Shown: piece by piece, positions 1,756-11,705 of the stretch
How the letters are laid out: every line of letters starts with the position of its first letter
How positions within the stretch are numbered: the first letter of the stretch is position 1
From: a virus
Taxonomy: Duplodnaviria; Heunggongvirae; Uroviricota; Caudoviricetes
Direction: 5' to 3' (one strand)
IMG/VR virus record: IMGVR_UViG_2671180458_000003
DNA: 12,239 nt
The notes under the pieces: model-generated
Databases searched by the model: none
Told to the model about the DNA's origin: nothing
Seen by the model: only the letters and a program-made list of their open reading frames with translations
Translations under genes and position numbers: made by a program

Positions 1756-2121
1756 ATGAGCGGAAAACAGTATCAGGGCACGGCCACTATCCGTGTGAAC
1801 GGTCAGGAATACGAGACGCTTGAGGGGGCTACATTTTCTCCGTCAGGTTTTGAACGTGAAGTGGTGAAAGGCGCGAAAGTCTATGGTTACCGCCAGAAAC
1901 CACGTGAAGCGACGCTGGACTGCAAATTTCCGGCAGGCGGAGAAGGCTCACCAGCCGCTGATGAAATCAACAACTGGACTGCGGTCACCATCGAGTTTGT
2001 GGCGGATACCGGCGAAGTCCACATGATGACGAAGGCCTGGAGCAGTGAACCGGCCTCGCTTGACGGTGGCGGGGAGATCTCCGCGAAGTTCGCCAGTGCC
2101 ACCAGTACCCGTGTCCAGTAA
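1756..2121 (+). CDS. phage tail tube protein (Mu gpM-like)
   Basis: 121-aa ORF directly after the sheath gene and 14 bp before the chaperone gene; size and position are typical of a contractile-tail tube protein. Confidence 0.6.
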   Translation: MSGKQYQGTATIRVNGQEYETLEGATFSPSGFEREVVKGAKVYGYRQKPREATLDCKFPAGGEGSPAADEINNWTAVTIEFVADTGEVHMMTKAWSSEPASLDGGGEISAKFASATSTRVQ

Positions 2122-2135
2122 TCAGGAAAAATGCA

Positions 2136-2612
2136 ATGACCACACGAAAGAAAAAAAACGCGGTTTCTGACGAAGCCGTTATTGAGGCTATCCGTGATGC
2201 ACTTGAGGACGGCGATCCACGCACCGCCGGTCTGGCAGAACAACTGGCGAAAGGCTATGTGGATCTGCTTGATGGTCTGCCATTCGGTGAGTCCCGTGAA
2301 TACCGCGTCACCTTCCGCGAACTGACGGCGAAAGACAGCATTGATGCGGAAACCGATGCTGAACGTCTTATGGAAACCCGAAACGGCCCGGTTCTGGTGG
2401 CATCACCGGCCCTGCGCGGTATTGCGCTGCTGCGTCGCCAGATTGCCGCTGTCGGTGACATTCAGGGGCCGTTGTCACAACGCCAGATTGGGCAGTTAAG
2501 CGAGCGCGATCTCTCCCGTCTGATGGCAGCGGTCAGCCTGCTGGATACCGCGCTTGCCGGAAAGCTGGCGGCTGATCGGGGGCGAGCAGGCGCAGTGTCG
2601 GGCGCAGATTGA
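2136..2612 (+). CDS. tail assembly chaperone (Mu gp41-like position)
   Basis: 158-aa acidic ORF between the tube and tape measure genes. Its 3' end overlaps an alternative-frame ORF that runs to just before the tape measure start, the lambda G/GT-like arrangement. Confidence 0.55.
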   Translation: MTTRKKKNAVSDEAVIEAIRDALEDGDPRTAGLAEQLAKGYVDLLDGLPFGESREYRVTFRELTAKDSIDAETDAERLMETRNGPVLVASPALRGIALLRRQIAAVGDIQGPLSQRQIGQLSERDLSRLMAAVSLLDTALAGKLAADRGRAGAVSGAD

Positions 2613-2736
2613 AGAAGCGGCAATAGTGCTGGGGATGGTGACCAGAAGCGGCCCGGAATGGGCGCTTAACCTCCCCTTATCGCAACTTTACCGGCACTGC
2701 CAACAAACGGAAAAAATTCTCAGAACGAAGAAGTAA
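2524..2736 (+). CDS. putative frameshift-extension reading frame of the tail chaperone
   Basis: The frame one nucleotide downstream of the chaperone frame is open from 2524 to a TAA at 2734-2736, 3 nt before the tape measure ATG (2740) and in the same frame as it. The six-frame track reports it only from a TTG at 2554. Candidate shift sites are GGG-GGC-GA (2578-2585) and the terminal GAT-TGA (2607-2612). Confidence 0.35.
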   Translation, partial: WQRSACWIPRLPESWRLIGGEQAQCRAQIEEAAIVLGMVTRSGPEWALNLPLSQLYRHCQQTEKILRTKK

Positions 2737-2739
2737 TCC

Positions 2740-4794
2740 ATGGCAAAAAACCTGAAAGCCTCCCTGATTGTCGATTTACTCGGCAATGTTTCCGCCAAAT
2801 CCCGCCAGTGGTCACAGGAGCTGGGGGCGTTCTCCCGCGTCGGCAGGACGGGGCTGGGTGGTATTGGAAATGCAGCCCGCCGTGCCGGTCAGGAGACAGA
2901 GCTTGTCGGCTCCCGTATGCAGCGTACGCTTGCCGGTGTCCGTGGCAGTATCCGCACGGTAACGTCGGATTTTGACCGTCTTCAGGGCAGTATTACCGGC
3001 ACGCTGGGACGTCTCAGCAACCTTTACGGGATGCTGGCAGGAGGGGCTGCGGTCTACGGTTTTAATAAAGCCTTTATCCGCCCGGCCGCAGAGATGGAGA
3101 ACTATATTCTGCGTCTCAATGCCATTAATCATGGCGATACGGCAAAAACGGAAGCAGTGAAAGCCTGGGCGGTACAGAACGCAAAGGAAACCACCTGGGG
3201 ACTGGCGGGGGTTATGCAGGAATACGCCTCCAGTCGCGGGTTCGGTATGAGTGACAGGGAAGCCCGCCGCTTTATTACCATGCTTCAGGATCAGGGCGGC
3301 TATCACGGCTGGTCACTGTCAGATGCACAGGGGGCGTCCCTGCAACTCAAACAGATGTTTGCCCGCCAGAGTATCCAGGCCGCGGACGCCAGTATCCTGA
3401 CCGGATACGGGATAAACGTTTACCAGTTGCTGGCCGATAAACTGGGTGTAAACCAGAAGACCATCCGTGAGAAAGGCGAGAAAGGAAAACTGGGACCGGA
3501 CAGCATTCGGCTGTTATTTCAGGTGATGGCCGAACAGGCAAAAGGTGCCCAGAAAAACGCCATGAACTCATGGACAGGGATGACATCCATGATGGGCGAC
3601 GTCTGGGACGGATTTGCCCGTGAAGTAATGGCAAAAGGGCCATTTGACAGCCTGAAAAAGAGCCTGAAAGGCTTCCTGGATTATGCCGATGCGGCACAGA
3701 AAAGCGGCTTACAGGACAAGCTGGCCACACAAACAGCCTCAGCCCTGAATCAGGGCTTTGAGTATGCCAGAGACGCAGCGACGGGTTTTTACCGGGCCAT
3801 TCAGAAAGTCAGGGAAACGCTTCAGGCATTGCGTGACGCTGGTTATGGCGATGCGCTGGATCGCATTGGTCAGGGCGCACAGACCGCCGCGAAATATCTC
3901 CTGTATATGTATCTCGCCACCCGTGCGCTGAAGGCTGTCCGCGCCATAGGTCTTGGGGCACTGCGACCGGGGGCGGCATTGTTGGGGTACGGGTTATCCA
4001 CGGCCGCTGTGCTGACCTCGCCTTTTCGTAAACCGCAGACCACCGTTCCGGGCACGCAGCCAGGACGCGGCCAGCGTTTTATGAACTTTCTTACCGGGGT
4101 AAATCCTGCTGCCGTTCAGCCCGTACTGGTCACCAACTGGCCTGCGGGTGGTCTGGCATCTGGTGGCGGGGATGTGGTGGTCAGCGGTGACGGCAAAACC
4201 GTGCGCAGCCGTAAAAAACGCGGCCCCGGACGTGGGCGGGGTGTCACGACCGTTGTGACTGCCGGTGAGCAACTGGCAGAGAGCGCCGGTAAACAGGGCT
4301 TCTTCGGTCGTATGATGAGCCGTGCCGGTGGTCTGCTTTCGGCTGCCGGAAGCCGCATGGGGTTGGGGCGTTTTGCCGGGCTTTTCCGTGGTGCCGGTCG
4401 GCTGGGCGGTGGTGCCCTGTGGGCCGGGGCCATGGCGGCTCCTGTACTGCTGGACAGCAGTGCCAGTGCCGTTGATAAAGCCGGTGCCGTGGGTTCCCTT
4501 GCCGGAAGTATCGCCGGTGGTGCGCTGGGGGCTGCCGCCGGTCCGGTCGGGGTTGCCATTGGCTCCACGGTGGGCAGTTATCTCGGTGATTATCTGGGGG
4601 GATGGCTGACCGAAGCCTGGCAGAAATTACGGGGCAGTGATGAAAATGGCGGACAGGCCACCGCGAAAACCGCCGCACGGGTGGAGCTTGTGGCCCCTGA
4701 AGGCTGGCGGGCACGCAGTATTGATGTGGATGATACCGCACAGCATGGTCTTGATGTGAACGTCTGGAACGGAGGGAACTATGGCCTCTACTGA
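2740..4794 (+). CDS. tail tape measure protein
   Basis: 684-aa ORF, the longest in the operon, directly after the chaperone pair. Ala/Gln/Lys-rich N-terminal two thirds and a Gly/Ala-rich hydrophobic C-terminal third (GGALWAGAMAAPVLL, GSLAGSIAGGALGAAAGPVGVAIGS), typical of tape measure proteins. Confidence 0.8.
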   Translation: MAKNLKASLIVDLLGNVSAKSRQWSQELGAFSRVGRTGLGGIGNAARRAGQETELVGSRMQRTLAGVRGSIRTVTSDFDRLQGSITGTLGRLSNLYGMLAGGAAVYGFNKAFIRPAAEMENYILRLNAINHGDTAKTEAVKAWAVQNAKETTWGLAGVMQEYASSRGFGMSDREARRFITMLQDQGGYHGWSLSDAQGASLQLKQMFARQSIQAADASILTGYGINVYQLLADKLGVNQKTIREKGEKGKLGPDSIRLLFQVMAEQAKGAQKNAMNSWTGMTSMMGDVWDGFAREVMAKGPFDSLKKSLKGFLDYADAAQKSGLQDKLATQTASALNQGFEYARDAATGFYRAIQKVRETLQALRDAGYGDALDRIGQGAQTAAKYLLYMYLATRALKAVRAIGLGALRPGAALLGYGLSTAAVLTSPFRKPQTTVPGTQPGRGQRFMNFLTGVNPAAVQPVLVTNWPAGGLASGGGDVVVSGDGKTVRSRKKRGPGRGRGVTTVVTAGEQLAESAGKQGFFGRMMSRAGGLLSAAGSRMGLGRFAGLFRGAGRLGGGALWAGAMAAPVLLDSSASAVDKAGAVGSLAGSIAGGALGAAAGPVGVAIGSTVGSYLGDYLGGWLTEAWQKLRGSDENGGQATAKTAARVELVAPEGWRARSIDVDDTAQHGLDVNVWNGGNYGLY

Positions 4795-6139
4795 CACGCC
4801 GGGGCGTGGCTCCTTCCGTGGTGTGCCGTTCCTGGTTTATCAGGAGCAGCGGGAACGGGGCGGACGTAACATTGTGCGCCGTGAATATCCGCTGCGTGAA
4901 AGCGGCGGTGCGGATGATTTGGGGCCAAAACTCCCGGAGTTTACATTCACGGCTCTTGTGATCGGCAATGACCTTCAGACGCAGCGAAGCCGCCTGCGGG
5001 ATGCGCTGCGGGCACCCGGTGCCGGTGAACTGATGCACCCGGATTACGGCACCTTAAATGTGCTGATAAACAGCTTTGAAAGCCGTTATAACGCCAGCGA
5101 ACAGGGAACGGTTGAGTTCACGATCAACGTGATCCCCGCCAGTGACGATACCGCACCGGCGGTGGCTGAAGACACGGCTGCCGTTCTGGAGCAGAAAAGC
5201 GGTTCAGCAATGAATCAGTTGTTTAACACGCTTTCAGACGGCTGGACAGTGATTTCAGACGGCCTGCATGATGTGCAGGCCATGACCGACACCATCAGCG
5301 ATAAAATTGATGCGCTGGAGAATGCCGTTTCGGGTATGGGGATTGTGCAGGATATCAGTGCCTTTACGGCCAGTTTCACTGCCCTGAAAGGGAATGCTGC
5401 CGCCCTGATTAATTCGCCCCGTCGCATGGCTGAATCTCTGGCCGGAATGTTTGCGGTGCTGACGGGACTGCCCGGCGATCCTTCCCTGTCACTGACCGGG
5501 AAGGCCGCAACGCCGTCCGGCAGCCTGACCACAAACCGTGACAGCATGACAGAGCAGGCAATGCCGCAACTGTACCGCACACTTTCTTCCCTGCGTTATA
5601 CCCTCAGCGGGCAGGATGATCCGCAGATCCTGATTGGTCTGACGCCTGCGGCACAGAAAAATATCAGTCTTCTGCGGACAGTCATGCAGAGCGCAACCCT
5701 GGTGTCACAGGCGCAGACGGTAGGAAAACTGCTGGATCAGGTCGTCCGGCAGAGTGCGACGCTCGTTCAGGATACTGACCGGGAGGGCGGACTGGCCTGG
5801 CTGGAAAGTTCTGCCGATGTGCAGCGGATCAACCGGGATTTGAGTGATGCCCTGGAACAACAGGTGCTGGATTTGTCCGCACAGGGCCATACCGGAACCG
5901 CCCTTGCATTACGTGATGCCAGACTTGCGCTGACAGAGGATTTAACAACGCGTAGCGTGCATCTTCCCGGCGCTTCTCAGGTCATGGTGCGAACCACCGA
6001 ACCGGCACTGGTCACGCTGTACCGTGCCACCGGCAACAGCCGTCGCTGGCAGTATTTTGTCCGCAGGAACAACATCCCTGATCCGGTTTTTGTTCCTGGT
6101 GGTCGCAGTGTGGAGGTGATCAGTGAGCAGCATGATTGA
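4781..6139 (+). CDS. Mu gpN-like DNA circulation protein (baseplate/tail-tip protein)
   Basis: 452-aa ORF overlapping the tape measure stop by 14 nt, with GGAGGG SD at 4771-4776. The N-terminus (SFRGVPFLV...) resembles the DNA-circulation N-terminal domain as I remember it. Position matches Mu gene N. Confidence 0.65.
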   Translation: MASTDTPGRGSFRGVPFLVYQEQRERGGRNIVRREYPLRESGGADDLGPKLPEFTFTALVIGNDLQTQRSRLRDALRAPGAGELMHPDYGTLNVLINSFESRYNASEQGTVEFTINVIPASDDTAPAVAEDTAAVLEQKSGSAMNQLFNTLSDGWTVISDGLHDVQAMTDTISDKIDALENAVSGMGIVQDISAFTASFTALKGNAAALINSPRRMAESLAGMFAVLTGLPGDPSLSLTGKAATPSGSLTTNRDSMTEQAMPQLYRTLSSLRYTLSGQDDPQILIGLTPAAQKNISLLRTVMQSATLVSQAQTVGKLLDQVVRQSATLVQDTDREGGLAWLESSADVQRINRDLSDALEQQVLDLSAQGHTGTALALRDARLALTEDLTTRSVHLPGASQVMVRTTEPALVTLYRATGNSRRWQYFVRRNNIPDPVFVPGGRSVEVISEQHD

Positions 6140-7247
6140 GCTGTATATTGGCGGCAGTATTTTTTCCGGCTGGCTGACGGTCAGTGTTCGTCGCTCGCTG
6201 GAGCATCTGGCCGGGTCGTTTGAACTGGGGCTGATGCTGCCCGGTGAGCGCATCCCCTCAGCCCTGCGGGCCGGTCAGTCCCTGACGCTCAGAATTAACG
6301 GGCAGACGGTCATCAGTGGCTGGCTGGATCAGGTCAGTCAGCGGATCAGTGCAACCCGTCATCAGATCAGCATCAGCGGTCGGGATAAAACCGGCGACCT
6401 GGTGGACTGTGCCGCCATCCATCCCGGCAGCCAGTGGCGAAACCGGACGCTGGCACAGATTGCCGCAGATTTATGTGCGCCCTTCGGAATAGCCGTGCGC
6501 TGGCAGGTTAACGACGACACGACTGCACGCCCCTTCAGCTCTTTTACCCTGGAAAACTCAGAAACCGTGGCGGATGCGCTGACCCGTGCGGCCCGGCATC
6601 GTGGGGTGCTGGTGACCAGTAATGCTGACGGCGATCTGGTGTTCACTCAGGCAGGAAATCAGCAGACGGACAGACTGGTGCTGGGGGAAAACCTGCTTGA
6701 TGCCGATTACAACATGGACTGGCGAGGACGATACAGCGAATACCGTGTCCGGGGGCATGGACGCGGTGGGGGTAAACGGGGAGACAGCGAATCCGCCGCC
6801 CGGCTGGCGGCCCCAGTGGGCATCATCAGTGATGAGCAGATCGGTCGCTACCGGCCGAAAATCATCCTCGCCGATCAACAGACAGACACCTCCGGTGCAC
6901 GGCAGCGCGCCCTGCGGGAGATGCGCCGTGCGGTTGCCCGTTCAGAACGGTTTTCCGCCACCGTGCGTGGCTGGTTCCGGGATGATGGCCGGTTATGGGA
7001 TGTCAATCTGCTGACCGGTGTTTCGGCCCTGCGTTTCGGTATCGAACAGACTGAACTTCTGGTCTGCCAGGTGGAGTTTTTACTGGATGAGCAGAACGGG
7101 GAAGTCACCCGGCTGGTACTGGCACCGCGTGACGGCTTTATCGTTCCGGCAGAGCCGGACAGTAAGGGTCGTGGTGGTTCCGGTGATGATGTTGATGCCT
7201 TTATTCGCCAGCAGATGAAAAAACAGGGGATCAGCTTTGATGAATGA
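6123..7247 (+). CDS. baseplate hub protein (Mu gpP / P2 gpD-like)
   Basis: 374-aa ORF; GTG start at 6123 lies 6 nt after GGAGG (6112-6116), with an alternative ATG at 6132. Overlaps the preceding stop. Position and size match Mu gene P. Confidence 0.6.
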   Translation: MSSMIELYIGGSIFSGWLTVSVRRSLEHLAGSFELGLMLPGERIPSALRAGQSLTLRINGQTVISGWLDQVSQRISATRHQISISGRDKTGDLVDCAAIHPGSQWRNRTLAQIAADLCAPFGIAVRWQVNDDTTARPFSSFTLENSETVADALTRAARHRGVLVTSNADGDLVFTQAGNQQTDRLVLGENLLDADYNMDWRGRYSEYRVRGHGRGGGKRGDSESAARLAAPVGIISDEQIGRYRPKIILADQQTDTSGARQRALREMRRAVARSERFSATVRGWFRDDGRLWDVNLLTGVSALRFGIEQTELLVCQVEFLLDEQNGEVTRLVLAPRDGFIVPAEPDSKGRGGSGDDVDAFIRQQMKKQGISFDE

Positions 7248-8281: not shown

Positions 8282-9363
8282 TGCCTTATCAGCCTTTACC
8301 GCTGGCACAGTTAATCACGCAGACACAGCAGGATATCAGCCAGCGTCTTCCCGGTTCGCAGCCGGGCGTGAATGAAACCACCCTGAATGCCATTGCGTAT
8401 GCTCAGGCAGGATTGTCTGCACAGGAGCATGAACATCTGGCCTGGATTGCACGTCAGATCATCCCGACAGAAGCCGATGAAGCCGAGTTGCTGAAGCACT
8501 GCGCTTTCTGGGGTGTCATGCGTAAACCTGCCTCACGGGGTGACGGGCCGGTTCAGCTGATGCTGACCACGGATGCGGGGATCACGGAAGGTGTGCTTCT
8601 CCAGCGCAGTGACGGCGTGGTTTACCGCATCACCTCCTCACTGACCGGTAAAGCCGGTACGCTGAATGTCAGTGTGGAGGCCGAAAGTGCCGGTCGTGCG
8701 GGAAATGCCCCGGCAGGGACGAAACTGACGTTTGTCACTCCGCAGGCGGGGATCAACCAGACGGCCACGGTGACCGGAACAGGGATCACCGGTGGTGCGG
8801 ATGTGGAAACGGTGCCGGAGCTGCTTTCCCGCCTGGTTTTCCGGGTGCAGAATCCGCCGTCCGGCGGTACACAGTACGATTTTGAACGCTGGGCGCGTGA
8901 AGTGCCGGGGGTGACGCGGGCATGGTGCCGCCCGGAATGGCCGCAGGCGGGCAGCGTGGGGGTGACGTTCGTTCAGGACAACAACCCGGACATTTTTCCC
9001 GGTGAAGGTGATGTGAAACGTGTGGCGGATTATATCCGCAGTCATGATGATCCGGCGACCGGCCAGCCTGTCGGTCAGCCTCTGGGGCCGACGGTGACCG
9101 TGTTTAAACTGACCAATAAGCCAGTGCCTTTCAGTATCAGGATCATCCCGAAAACACCGGAGAATCAGGCGGCAGTAAAACAGGCACTGACCGACCTGTT
9201 ATACAACGAATCCCGCCCCGGCGGTCTGGTTCTGGCGTCGTCTTTCTGGCGTGCCGTGGCGGGGGTGAAAAATCTGGAGGATTTTGAAGTGCGCAGCCCG
9301 CTGACGTCGGTTCAGGCGGGAGACAGCGAGCTGCTGACAGTGGGGGAAATCACATGGCTGTAA
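8281..9363 (+). CDS. baseplate J-like protein (Mu gp47 / P2 gpJ / T4 gp6-like)
   Basis: 360-aa ORF with a TAATG stop-start overlap and AAGGGGGAG SD. Size and position after the gp46-like gene match the baseplate J family. Confidence 0.7.
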   Translation: MPYQPLPLAQLITQTQQDISQRLPGSQPGVNETTLNAIAYAQAGLSAQEHEHLAWIARQIIPTEADEAELLKHCAFWGVMRKPASRGDGPVQLMLTTDAGITEGVLLQRSDGVVYRITSSLTGKAGTLNVSVEAESAGRAGNAPAGTKLTFVTPQAGINQTATVTGTGITGGADVETVPELLSRLVFRVQNPPSGGTQYDFERWAREVPGVTRAWCRPEWPQAGSVGVTFVQDNNPDIFPGEGDVKRVADYIRSHDDPATGQPVGQPLGPTVTVFKLTNKPVPFSIRIIPKTPENQAAVKQALTDLLYNESRPGGLVLASSFWRAVAGVKNLEDFEVRSPLTSVQAGDSELLTVGEITWL

Positions 9364-10859: not shown

Positions 10860-11256
10860 TTATTCCGGTTTTTCCGGCCAGGAAATCGCCTGGTAATGCC
10901 TCTCGCTGGCAATATCATTAAGGTGCATTTCTTTAAGCTGTCGGATATACGCCATCCAGCGCGTCAGCTTTAATTTATTTTCATCGCTAATCATGTCCAG
11001 TTTTAATTCTGTTTTCCAGTCATCCACGGTTCCGTTGGCCTCCTGGAGCAGCGATGAACGGCGATTTTCAGCAACCGTATTCCAGTTTACCGGCACCTTT
11101 GATATCAGGCCATCAGAAAACTGCCAGTTACCGTCAATATTCACACCTTCCGGCAGTTCGTCCACTTCAACAACAGTAAAACCTGCCGGATATAAAGCAG
11201 AGACATCTTCAGCAACAGAGCAGATAATGCCCGTTACAGGCGAAATACAGAGTTTG
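10860..11256 (-). CDS. tail fibre assembly protein (Tfa / Mu U-like), N-terminus lost in the N-gap
   Basis: 132 visible codons ending at stop 10860-10862. Carries Tfa-type motifs (GIICSVAEDVSALYPAGFTVVEV, MISDENKLKLTRWMAYIRQ, C-terminal WPEKPE). The reading frame runs into the N run at 11257. Confidence 0.7.
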
Positions 11257-11410
11257 NNNNNNNNNNNNNNNNNNNNNNNNNNNNNNNNNNNNNNNNNNNN
11301 NNNNNNNNNNNNNNNNNNNNNNNNNNNNNNNNNNNNNNNNNNNNNNNNNNNNNNNNNNNNNNNNNNNNNNNNNNNNNNNNNNNNNNNNNNNNNNNNNNNN
11401 NNNNNNNNNN
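11257..11410. other. run of 154 N (assembly gap or masked sequence)
   Basis: Literal n characters in the sequence. It lies inside the invertible segment and hides the junction between the alternative fibre cassette and the assembly-gene 5' end. Confidence 0.95.
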
Positions 11411-11705
11411 CACCACCACGCATTTCCCAGTCTCCGTCAGTCTTAAAACCGGTAATCACATTTCCTGATGACAGGGAGTAATTATATTCCAGTCCACCGC
11501 TTAATGCCTGCGCTCCCAGTCTTACCCCTGTAACATAACGCTGATTGGCCGTTGATTCCGGCATTCCTGACGTAATGTTTATATCCTGCGTGCCGTCAAA
11601 GGCGACACCATTGATTCTGCGGGCATTTGCCAGCCTGCTTGCTGCAACAGCCGTACCGTTTGATGGCAGGGCATTCGCGGCCCTGTTTACCGTATCCCGT
11701 AAACC
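11411..11705 (-). CDS. promoterless alternative tail-fibre C-terminal cassette (Sv'), 3' end lost in the N-gap
   Basis: Minus-strand frame is open from the right crossover site (codons [24 protein letters not shown]...) through ...QRYVTGVRLGAQALSGGLEYNYSLSSGNVITGFKTDGDWEMRGG into the gap. The first ~38 aa are near-identical to the plus-strand fibre after its crossover site, then the sequence diverges. No start codon or SD of its own at the 5' end; the track's Met at 11564 is internal. Confidence 0.7.

What the first reader, a model, noticed from the sequence alone, without database searches (positions are those of the whole stretch)
2524..2740. Tail chaperone with a candidate +1 (not -1) programmed frameshift into a frame ending at the tape measure start
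The chaperone ORF (2136-2612) overlaps a second open frame (2524-2736) that ends 3 nt before the tape measure ATG, in the same frame as the tape measure. This is the conserved lambda G/GT arrangement. By position arithmetic the extension is in the +1 frame relative to the chaperone, not the usual -1. Plausible +1 sites are GGG-GGC-GA at 2578-2585 (P-site GGG can re-pair on GGC; the next zero-frame codon CGA is rare in E. coli) and the terminal GAT-TGA-A at 2607-2613 (shift at the stop codon, prfB-like).
Basis: partly seen in the sequence, partly recalled or inferred. Interest (0 to 1): 0.5.

Follow-up and report, generated by a model that had tools for sequence, protein, structure and literature searches.

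The report
Mu-type tail chaperone -2 frameshift site
This is the tail-assembly chaperone gene of a Mu-like E. coli prophage, carrying the same slippery sequence at which phage Mu ribosomes slip back two bases to make a longer protein; this was described in 2004, so the finding is real but ordinary.

Summary
The chaperone ORF 2136-2612 overlaps an open frame (2524-2736) that lies +1/-2 relative to it and stops 3 nt before the tape measure ATG (2740).

The gene is an orthologue of phage Mu gp41 (Pfam Gp41_Mu, 1e-31). CGG GGG CGA G at 2577-2586 is identical, in the same phase, to the Mu site. The curated Mu record labels that site a verified -2 frameshift, and the literature describes it as -2.

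- G GGG CGA is present in phase in 166 of 170 related viral loci. In the 100-nt window compared across the first set of loci, it is the only invariant block.
- The +1/-2 frame is the long open one in all 26 loci listed and in the G6 variant.
- The extension evolves as coding sequence, is 54% identical to Mu's, and has no conserved start codon.
- The likely product is therefore a 200-aa fusion made by a -2 shift, not +1.
- The stop-codon site (2607-2613) and the shared frame with the tape measure are not conserved.

One thing may be new. A stem starting 6 nt after CGA (2592-2601 with 2691-2700) is supported by covariation. Photorhabdus and Xenorhabdus relatives replace it with a local hairpin at the same spacing. 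It is probably the frameshift stimulator.

The parts
1756..2121 (+). tail tube gene, immediately upstream of the chaperone
   Evidence: Pfam Tail_tube 1.3e-30; phrog_185 tail tube
2136..2612 (+). tail assembly chaperone, Mu gp41 orthologue (158 aa), the zero-frame product
   Evidence: Pfam Gp41_Mu 1e-31 and phrog_508 1e-43. 48% identity to Mu gp41 by tblastn. RefSeq annotates it as 'phage tail assembly protein'.
2577..2585 (+). slip site CGG GGG CGA (G5 run at 2578-2582); the -2 shift is proposed to occur here
   Evidence: Identical in sequence and phase to Mu. G GGG CGA is present in phase in 166 of 170 related viral loci. Lin et al. give the Mu site as GG GGG CGA.
2584..2736 (+). extension ('T-like' domain) read in the -2/+1 frame up to TAA 2734-2736. 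Translation would resume at GAG 2584 after tandem slippage, or at GGC 2581 after P-site slippage. Either way the fusion is 200 aa.
   Evidence: Fusion sequences built. 54% identity to the Mu extension, E = 3e-21. phrog_12783 at 1e-34. Codon-position substitution pattern 12/6/27. No conserved start codon.
2586..2591 (+). 6-nt spacer between the A-site codon CGA and the downstream stem
2592..2601 (+). 5' arm (GCAGUGUCGG) of a conserved long-range stem; candidate frameshift stimulator
   Evidence: RNAalifold predicts it on 33 sequences. 99.7% of cells are paired and there are 2 compensatory pairs; no shuffle reached the observed value for four of the five measures (32 of 500 did for the fifth, further pair types). 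Pairing probability 1.00 in the window.
2691..2700 (+). 3' arm (CCGGCACUGC) of the long-range stem, lying in the codons for R-H-C of the extension
   Evidence: Its His (CAC) and Cys (TGC) third positions are the only invariant synonymous sites in the extension-only region.
2651..2663 (+). small inner hairpin (GCCC / GGGC) inside the long-range loop; weakly supported
   Evidence: Predicted. 99.2% of cells paired, but only one-sided changes.
2740..4794 (+). tape measure gene, starting 3 nt after the extension stop
   Evidence: Pfam TMP_3 3e-18; phrog_973 2e-198

Best explanation
The window is the tail module of a Mu-like E. coli prophage. Gene 2136-2612 is the orthologue of Mu gp41, the tail assembly chaperone.

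Most ribosomes stop at TGA 2610-2612 and make the 158-aa chaperone. A small fraction slip back two nucleotides on CGG GGG CGA (2577-2585). In this model tRNA-Gly moves from GGG 2580-2582 to GGG 2578-2580. In the tandem version, tRNA-Arg moves from CGA 2583-2585 to GGC 2581-2583. Translation then continues in the other frame to TAA 2734-2736.

The result is a 200-aa fusion: chaperone plus a 50-aa C-terminal domain. Its junction reads ...AADRGR-EQAQCR... after tandem slippage, or ...AADRG-GEQAQCR... after P-site slippage.

By analogy with lambda gpG/gpGT, both proteins coat the tape measure protein, and the extra domain of the rare fusion recruits the tail tube protein.

A stem starting 6 nt after CGA (2592-2601 with 2691-2700) probably pauses or tensions the ribosome and stimulates the shift.

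Shown here:
- orthology with Mu gp41;
- identity and conservation of the slip site;
- conservation and coding signature of the extension;
- conservation of the stem.

Inferred by homology or analogy:
- that the shift happens in this prophage;
- that it is -2;
- its efficiency;
- the roles of the two proteins;
- the role of the stem.
For: Orthology and gene order:
- The gene order is sheath, tube, gp41-like chaperone, tape measure, then gp43-46-like genes.
- The chaperone is 48% identical to Mu gp41.

The slip site:
- CGGGGGCGAG in the window matches Mu in sequence and phase.
- The curated Mu record has a joined CDS noted 'verified -2 translational frameshift in PMID 15469818'.
- Reviews call Mu the natural -2 case, at about 2.2% efficiency. 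Lin et al. give the site as GG GGG CGA with tandem -2 slippage.
- Both -2 constructions of the Mu fusion exactly match named entries: P0DJY4 and UIW09302.1. No named entry has the +1 construction.
- G GGG CGA is present in phase in 89 of 90 and 77 of 80 loci. In the 100-nt window compared across the first set, it is the only invariant block.
- The codon before GGG encodes R, K, Q or S in the viral loci, and also E, A or G in bacterial genomes. It always ends in G. When it is Arg, only CGG or AGG is used, although NGG codons are 22% of Arg codons in this window's genes.

The extension:
- The +1/-2 frame is the long open one in all 26 loci listed and in the G6 variant, and continues 45-52 codons past the motif in nearly every unique locus with the motif. 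The -1 frame closes 2-32 codons past the chaperone stop in those with the G5 motif.
- In 7 of 23 lineages the extension frame opens only 3-4 codons 5' of the motif, and it has no conserved start codon.
- The extension is 54% identical to Mu's and shows codon-position bias in its own frame.

The stem:
- RNAalifold predicts it independently.
- There are two compensatory G-C to A-U changes, and 99.7% of cells are paired against 32-43% when the partner is slid.
- Photorhabdus and Xenorhabdus relatives have lost the distal arm. They pair the same 5' arm in a local 12-13 bp hairpin with the same 6-nt spacer.
- Stable structures start 4-6 nt after CGA in Vibrio, Shewanella and Pasteurellaceae-type relatives, with z-scores of -2.6 to -5.8.
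- Pairing probability at +6 to +15 is at least 0.74 in 17 of 22 representatives, against about 11% of control positions reaching 0.7.
Against: - There is no protein or ribosome-profiling evidence for this prophage. The fusion is absent from the protein collection, and RefSeq annotates only the 158-aa product.
- Sequence alone cannot separate -2 from +1. Both enter the same frame, and the products differ by one residue.
- Several lineages have only four Gs (AAG, CAG, TCG, GAG or GCG before GGG CGA). There, -2 re-pairing of tRNA-Gly is imperfect.
- The junction residue is unsettled even for Mu. Swiss-Prot has G and GenBank has R.
- I could not read the primary paper.
- On the window alone the stem is not significant (z = -1.26 for 115 nt).
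- Six of the stem's 10 pairs never vary.
- A mixed alignment of a marine clade gave no consensus structure.
Confidence: 0.85

Rival explanations
1. A +1 ribosomal frameshift at the same site. P-site tRNA-Gly slips forward from GGG 2580-2582 to GGC 2581-2583 while the rare CGA codon waits in the A site. The product would be a 199-aa fusion with junction ...DRG-EQAQ...
For: - It enters the same target frame.
- CGA is rare in these genes: 13 of 238 Arg codons.
- Lineages with only four Gs re-pair imperfectly after a -2 shift.
- The reporters in the 2025 preprint cannot tell -2 from +1.
Against: - The Mu site, identical over 10 nt, is annotated as a verified -2 shift and described as -2 in the literature.
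- No named Mu entry carries the +1 junction.
- A +1 slip does not explain the invariant G (usually GG) 5' of the GGG codon.
- It also does not explain the exclusive use of CGG or AGG for the preceding Arg.
Confidence: 0.08
2. A +1 shift at the chaperone stop codon (GAT TGA A, 2607-2613), in the manner of prfB.
For: The extension frame is open across the stop, and a stop is a slow A-site signal.
Against: - The stop context is not conserved: GAA TGA, CTT TGA, TCT TGA, CCT TAA and GAC TAA are all seen.
- The stop lies 3 to 51 nt from the conserved motif.
- tRNA-Asp on GAU cannot re-pair on AUU.
- No Shine-Dalgarno-like sequence is conserved upstream.
- The extension-frame peptide is conserved from the motif onward, upstream of the stop (GE..CR..IE).
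Confidence: 0.01
3. The second frame is translated on its own from an internal start, for example TTG 2554 or GTG/ATG near 2626-2638. It would then be a separate small protein, as phage D108 annotates 'gp41.5'.
For: the ORF listing gives a 60-aa TTG ORF at 2554-2736. D108 and some E. coli records annotate a 48-aa ORF here.
Against: - No start codon is conserved in this frame.
- In Mu and several other lineages the first ATG, GTG or TTG lies 28-32 codons after the motif, so the conserved N-terminal part would be lost.
- The frame opens only 3-4 codons before the motif in 7 of 23 lineages.
- No sigma-70-type promoter-like site lies nearby.
Confidence: 0.02
4. RNA polymerase slippage on the G5 run. 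Adding two Gs, or dropping one, in the mRNA would give the same proteins without any ribosomal slippage.
For: - A G7 transcript would encode ...RGGE..., and a G4 transcript ...RGE...
- G4 versions occur as DNA in some assemblies.
Against: - From general knowledge: known bacterial transcriptional slippage needs longer runs, mostly of A or T, so five Gs are too few.
- Slippage in the run would not explain the invariant CGA after it.
- It would not explain a structure placed 6 nt downstream.
- The literature treats the Mu event as ribosomal.
Confidence: 0.03

Closest known systems
Phage Mu gp41 / FS-gp41 (Mup41, Mu_56): programmed -2 frameshift (Xu, Hendrix and Duda 2004)
   Same: - Orthologous chaperone (48% identity) and extension (54% identity).
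- Same gene order.
- Identical CGG GGG CGA G in the same phase.
- Same target frame.
- Same long-range stem with a 6-nt spacer.

   Different: - A longer N-terminus: 158 aa against 144 aa.
- The chaperone stop lies 27 nt after CGA, against 21 nt in Mu.
- The extension stops 3 nt before the tape measure start, in its frame; in Mu the gap is 14 nt and the frame differs.
- Not tested experimentally, and not annotated in RefSeq.
Lambda gpG/gpGT and P2 gpE/gpE+E' tail chaperone frameshifts
   Same: - Same position, between the tail tube and tape measure genes.
- Same logic: an abundant short chaperone and a rare C-terminally extended one.
- A weak Pfam Phage_TAC_7 (E / 41 / 14) match at 6.8e-5, below that family's cut-off.
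   Different: Those use a -1 shift on an X XXY YYZ heptamer. Here the -1 frame closes after 4 codons, and the site is a G run plus CGA used for a -2 shift.
prfB (release factor 2) +1 frameshift
   Same: It enters the +1 frame at a slowly decoded A-site codon.
   Different: - prfB shifts at an in-frame stop, with a Shine-Dalgarno sequence 3 nt upstream.
- Here the stop is at a variable distance and no such sequence is conserved.
- The direction in Mu is -2.
Arterivirus nsp2TF -2 frameshift
   Same: It is one of the few natural -2 frameshifts.
   Different: From general knowledge: it occurs in a eukaryotic virus, its slip site is G GUU UUU, and it is stimulated by a protein bound to a C-rich motif rather than by an RNA stem.

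Membership tests
Mu-type gp41 / FS-gp41 -2 frameshift cassette | The chaperone is homologous to Mu gp41 | tested here: met
   Pfam Gp41_Mu 1e-31 (cut-off 27 bits, score 109.6). tblastn 48% identity, E = 1e-26.
Mu-type gp41 / FS-gp41 -2 frameshift cassette | The gene lies between the tail tube and tape measure genes of a contractile tail module | tested here: met
   Sheath 245-1747, tube 1756-2121, chaperone 2136-2612, tape measure 2740-4794
Mu-type gp41 / FS-gp41 -2 frameshift cassette | [quoted passage not shown] | tested here: met
   2578-2585, with codons CGG GGG CGA. Identical to Mu. Site as given by Lin et al..
Mu-type gp41 / FS-gp41 -2 frameshift cassette | An extension of about 50 codons in the -2/+1 frame, homologous to Mu's and ending at the tape measure start | tested here: met
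   54% identity, E = 3e-21. phrog_12783 at 1e-34. Ends 3 nt before the ATG.
Mu-type gp41 / FS-gp41 -2 frameshift cassette | A fusion protein is actually made, by a shift of -2 | not testable with these tools
   Needs protein mass spectrometry or a reporter assay. Known only for Mu, through the record note and the literature.
Lambda G/GT-type -1 frameshift | An X XXY YYZ heptamer with a long open -1 frame | tested here: not met
   The -1 frame is open only over 2576-2626, 4 codons past the stop. Across loci with the G5 motif it ends 2-32 codons past the stop. The function is analogous, but this is not a member.
prfB-like +1 shift at a stop codon | The shift occurs at a conserved in-frame stop, with an upstream Shine-Dalgarno-like stimulator | tested here: not met
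   Stop context and distance vary, and no upstream block is conserved
Rfam frameshift or other RNA families | A match to a curated covariance model | tested here: not met
   No match with E up to 1 in 2300-2900

The most novel reading that the evidence does not exclude
The downstream RNA structure may be a frameshift stimulator that has not been described. It always starts 4-6 nt after CGA. In the Mu/E. coli clade it is a long-range 10-bp stem (window 2592-2601 with 2691-2700). In Photorhabdus and Xenorhabdus it is a local 12-13 bp hairpin built on the same 5' arm. Vibrio and Shewanella relatives have unrelated stems at the same place. If real, it could help explain why Mu-like phages shift by -2. 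I could not read the 2004 paper, so it may already be described there.
Probability: 0.35. Interest if true: 0.45.

Novelty: already known. Interest (0 to 1): 0.2.

Why it matters
The direct value is annotation. RefSeq leaves 2613-2739 unannotated in this prophage, which occurs in about 230 of 5,426 complete E. coli genomes. Some phage records call the extension a separate small ORF. The slip motif, in phase in a gp41-like gene, is a simple and reliable rule for annotating the fusion product.

Mechanistically this is the classic natural -2 frameshift. The conserved, position-fixed downstream structure and the G4 and G6 variants of the site give concrete constructs for testing what sets the direction of a bacterial frameshift.

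Tried and rejected
Searches that gave nothing or failed:
- The single-protein scan of genome contigs found no relative.
A later alignment worked.
- The primary paper, PMID 15469818, is not held. The -2 assignment therefore rests on the GenBank note, Swiss-Prot and later papers.
- A full-text search for GGGGGCGA found only unrelated uses; the one phage hit was a ribosome-binding site in a table.
- Rfam gave no match.
- No sigma-70-type promoter-like or intrinsic-terminator-like sites were found in 2000-3000.

Analyses that were uninformative:
- Short local folds of the 65 nt after the site were not significant in the window or in Mu (z = -0.65 and +0.27). The significant partner is distal.
- RNAalifold on a mixed marine clade gave no consensus.

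Ideas rejected:
- A shift at the stop codon.
- Independent initiation of the extension.
- Readthrough into the tape measure. The shared frame is seen in only 5 of 25 lineages.
- A chance ORF.

A correction of my own: after I assumed UIW09302.1 had the RGGE junction. One search showed it is the RGRE version.
Full report
**1. The observation**

- ORF 2136-2612 encodes 158 aa and ends in TGA at 2610-2612.
- A second frame is open from 2524, after a stop at 2521-2523, to TAA at 2734-2736.
- The tape measure ATG is at 2740, 3 nt later and in that same frame.
- Chaperone codons start at positions divisible by 3. Extension codons start one base later, so the extension is +1 (equivalently -2).
- The zero-frame codons at the candidate site are GAT CGG GGG CGA GCA, with the G5 run at 2578-2582.
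- The -1 frame closes 4 codons beyond the chaperone stop.
- GGGGGCGA occurs once in the window against 0.84 expected by chance. The single sequence proves nothing; the weight comes from comparison.

**2. What the region is**

The window is the tail module of a Mu-like myovirus.
- Sheath: 245-1747.
- Tube: 1756-2121.
- Chaperone: 2136-2612 (Pfam Gp41_Mu, 1e-31).
- Tape measure: 2740-4794.
- These are followed by DNA-circularisation (gp43-like), gp44-, gp45- and Baseplate_J-type genes.

The same DNA occurs in about 230 of 5,426 complete E. coli genomes, and as a 'Mu-like phage' inserted in two Stx phage records. RefSeq annotates only the 158-aa 'phage tail assembly protein' and leaves the stretch up to the tape measure gene empty.

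**3. Link to phage Mu**

The chaperone is 48% identical to Mu gp41. Mu has CGG GGG CGA G in the same phase, 7 codons before its stop.
- The curated Mu record AF083977.1 carries a two-piece CDS, Mu_56. Its note reads 'verified -2 translational frameshift in PMID 15469818; tail assembly chaperone frameshift product'.
- Atkins et al. 2016 list Mu among the natural -2 frameshifts.
- Firth et al. 2012 give an efficiency of about 2.2%.
- Lin et al. 2012 describe tandem -2 slippage on GG GGG CGA, in which the A-site tRNA-Arg (anticodon ICG) re-pairs better in the -2 frame than in the -1 frame.
- I built the possible Mu products and looked them up by exact sequence. The -2 product with junction ERG-GEW is Swiss-Prot P0DJY4, 'FS-gp41'.
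- The -2 product with junction ERGR-EW is GenBank UIW09302.1.
- The +1 product (ERG-EW, 187 aa) matches no named entry.
- None of the window's own fusions is in the collection.
- I could not read Xu et al. 2004 itself.

**4. Conservation of the site and the frame**

I collected 170 related viral loci in two scans, a dozen annotated phage records, and 19 loci from bacterial genomes.
- G GGG CGA, in phase, is present in 89 of 90 loci in the first set and 77 of 80 in the second. In the 100-nt window compared across the first set, it is the only invariant block, although the proteins fall to 34% identity.
- The exceptions explain themselves. Two loci carry CGG GGG GAG, a G6 run that still uses the +1/-2 frame. 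One locus is truncated. One has lost a G, which fuses the two frames.
- The codon before GGG is mostly CGG, sometimes AGG. In a few viral lineages it is AAG, CAG or TCG, and in bacterial genomes also GAG, GCG or GGG.
- That amino acid varies, but the third base is always G. When it is Arg, only NGG codons are used. NGG codons make up 52 of 238 Arg codons in this window's genes.
- This is a constraint on the nucleotides 5' of the GGG codon. Backward re-pairing needs it; a forward slip does not.

**5. The extension is a protein-coding domain reached only by frameshifting**

- The +1/-2 frame is open from the motif to within -23 to +14 nt of the tape measure start. The extension is 45-52 codons in nearly every unique locus with the motif.
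- The window's extension is 54% identical to Mu's (E = 3e-21) and matches phrog_12783.
- In the part that only this frame encodes, variable columns among close relatives number 12, 6 and 27 of 39 at codon positions 1, 2 and 3.
- No start codon is conserved. In Mu the first ATG, GTG or TTG lies 28 codons after the motif.
- In 7 of 23 lineages the frame opens only 3-4 codons before the motif.
- In the Shewanella and Vibrio 'martha' phages the region open in both frames is only 20-35 nt and contains the motif.
- This places the shift at the motif. It also excludes the stop-codon site, whose context and distance (3-51 nt) vary freely.
- The shared frame with the tape measure is incidental: the relative frame is 0, 1 or 2 in 5, 12 and 8 of 25 lineages.

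**6. A conserved downstream structure**

Folding the 115 nt after CGA pairs 2592-2601 (GCAGUGUCGG) with 2691-2700 (CCGGCACUGC). Mu forms the same stem, two pairs longer, with z = -4.68. The window alone gives z = -1.26.
- RNAalifold finds this stem on 33 distinct enterobacterial sequences.
- 99.7% of cells are paired, against 32-43% when the partner is slid by 1-3 columns.
- Two pairs show compensatory G-C to A-U changes in separate lineages. A third pair shows U-G, C-G and U-A but never C-A.
- No shuffle reached the observed value for four of the five measures; 32 of 500 did for the fifth, further pair types.
- In the extension-only region, three third-codon positions are invariant across the 33 sequences. 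One is forced (Trp TGG). The other two are the His CAC and Cys TGC positions inside the 3' arm.
- Photorhabdus and Xenorhabdus relatives lack the distal R-H-C codons. The same 5' arm, at the same 6-nt spacing, pairs with a nearby sequence to form a 12-13 bp hairpin (z = -3.7 and -2.8).
- Unrelated stable stems begin 4-6 nt after CGA in a Vibrio phage (z = -5.8), a Shewanella phage (z = -4.0) and a Pasteurellaceae-type contig (z = -2.6).
- The probability of pairing with a downstream partner at +6 to +15 is at least 0.74 in 17 of 22 representatives. Only 10.8% of 277 control positions in the same loci reach 0.7.
- One mixed marine clade gave no consensus structure.
- Rfam has no such family, and I found no description in the papers I could read.
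- The placement fits a frameshift stimulator. Lin et al. report that -2 shifting is favoured by a slightly shorter spacer than -1 shifting. That the stem acts as a stimulator here is inference.

**7. Mechanism and verdict**

The best-supported reading is that most ribosomes make the 158-aa chaperone and a few per cent slip back two bases on CGG GGG CGA.
- The slipped ribosomes make a 200-aa fusion, coded by 2136-2585 joined to 2584-2736, or by 2136-2582 joined to 2581-2736.
- By analogy with lambda gpG/gpGT, both proteins bind the tape measure protein, and the extra domain of the fusion recruits the tube protein.
- Novelty is therefore low. The downstream structure is the only element that may be new.

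Noticed in passing
window 2613-2739; L107 3514-3640: RefSeq (PGAP) annotates only the 158-aa chaperone and leaves the extension unannotated in this prophage. SfMu, the Yersinia Mu-like phages and others do the same. D108 annotates the extension as a separate 48-aa 'gp41.5', whose start falls on a CTG codon.
   Followed up: partly
Mu protein entries P0001 (P0DJY4) and P0006 (UIW09302.1): The two named database versions of the Mu frameshift product differ at the junction residue. Swiss-Prot has ...ERG-G-EWL... and GenBank has ...ERG-R-EWL... They imply different tRNA-level mechanisms: P-site slippage against tandem slippage.
   Followed up: partly
L080 and L191 about 1846 and 1082 (the same Kluyvera prophage); L193 about 1100 (Erwinia tracheiphila); proteins P0002 and P0008: Several assemblies have CGGGGCGAG, one G fewer. 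The chaperone and extension then form one in-frame ORF with the '+1-type' junction RGE (RGQ in P0008). These may be homopolymer assembly errors or real mutants that make only the fusion. The Kluyvera copy has a second frame break further on.
   Followed up: partly
L112 and L114, chaperone ends at 1560: A marine variant has CGG GGG GAG, a G6 run with no CGA codon, and the +1/-2 frame is still the open one. On this site both -2 and +1 re-pairing of tRNA-Gly would be perfect.
   Followed up: partly
L195 and L197-L204 (Xenorhabdus and Photorhabdus prophages): The chaperone stop (TAG) follows the CGA codon directly (GAG GGG CGA TAG). The site has only four Gs, and a strong local hairpin follows after 6 nt. 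This is a compact version of the signal.
   Followed up: partly
window 4781-4794, 6123-6139, 7237-7247, 9354-9363: Successive tail and baseplate genes overlap by 10-17 nt: tape measure with gp43-like, gp43-like with gp44-like, gp44-like with gp45-like, and Baseplate_J with the next ORF. This is typical tight packing and was not examined further.
   Followed up: no
window 10860-11564 (- strand) and 10993-11481 (+ strand): Near the right end of the window, a 234-aa minus-strand ORF overlaps a 162-aa plus-strand ORF. In Mu this position holds the invertible tail-fibre region. I did not examine it.
   Followed up: no
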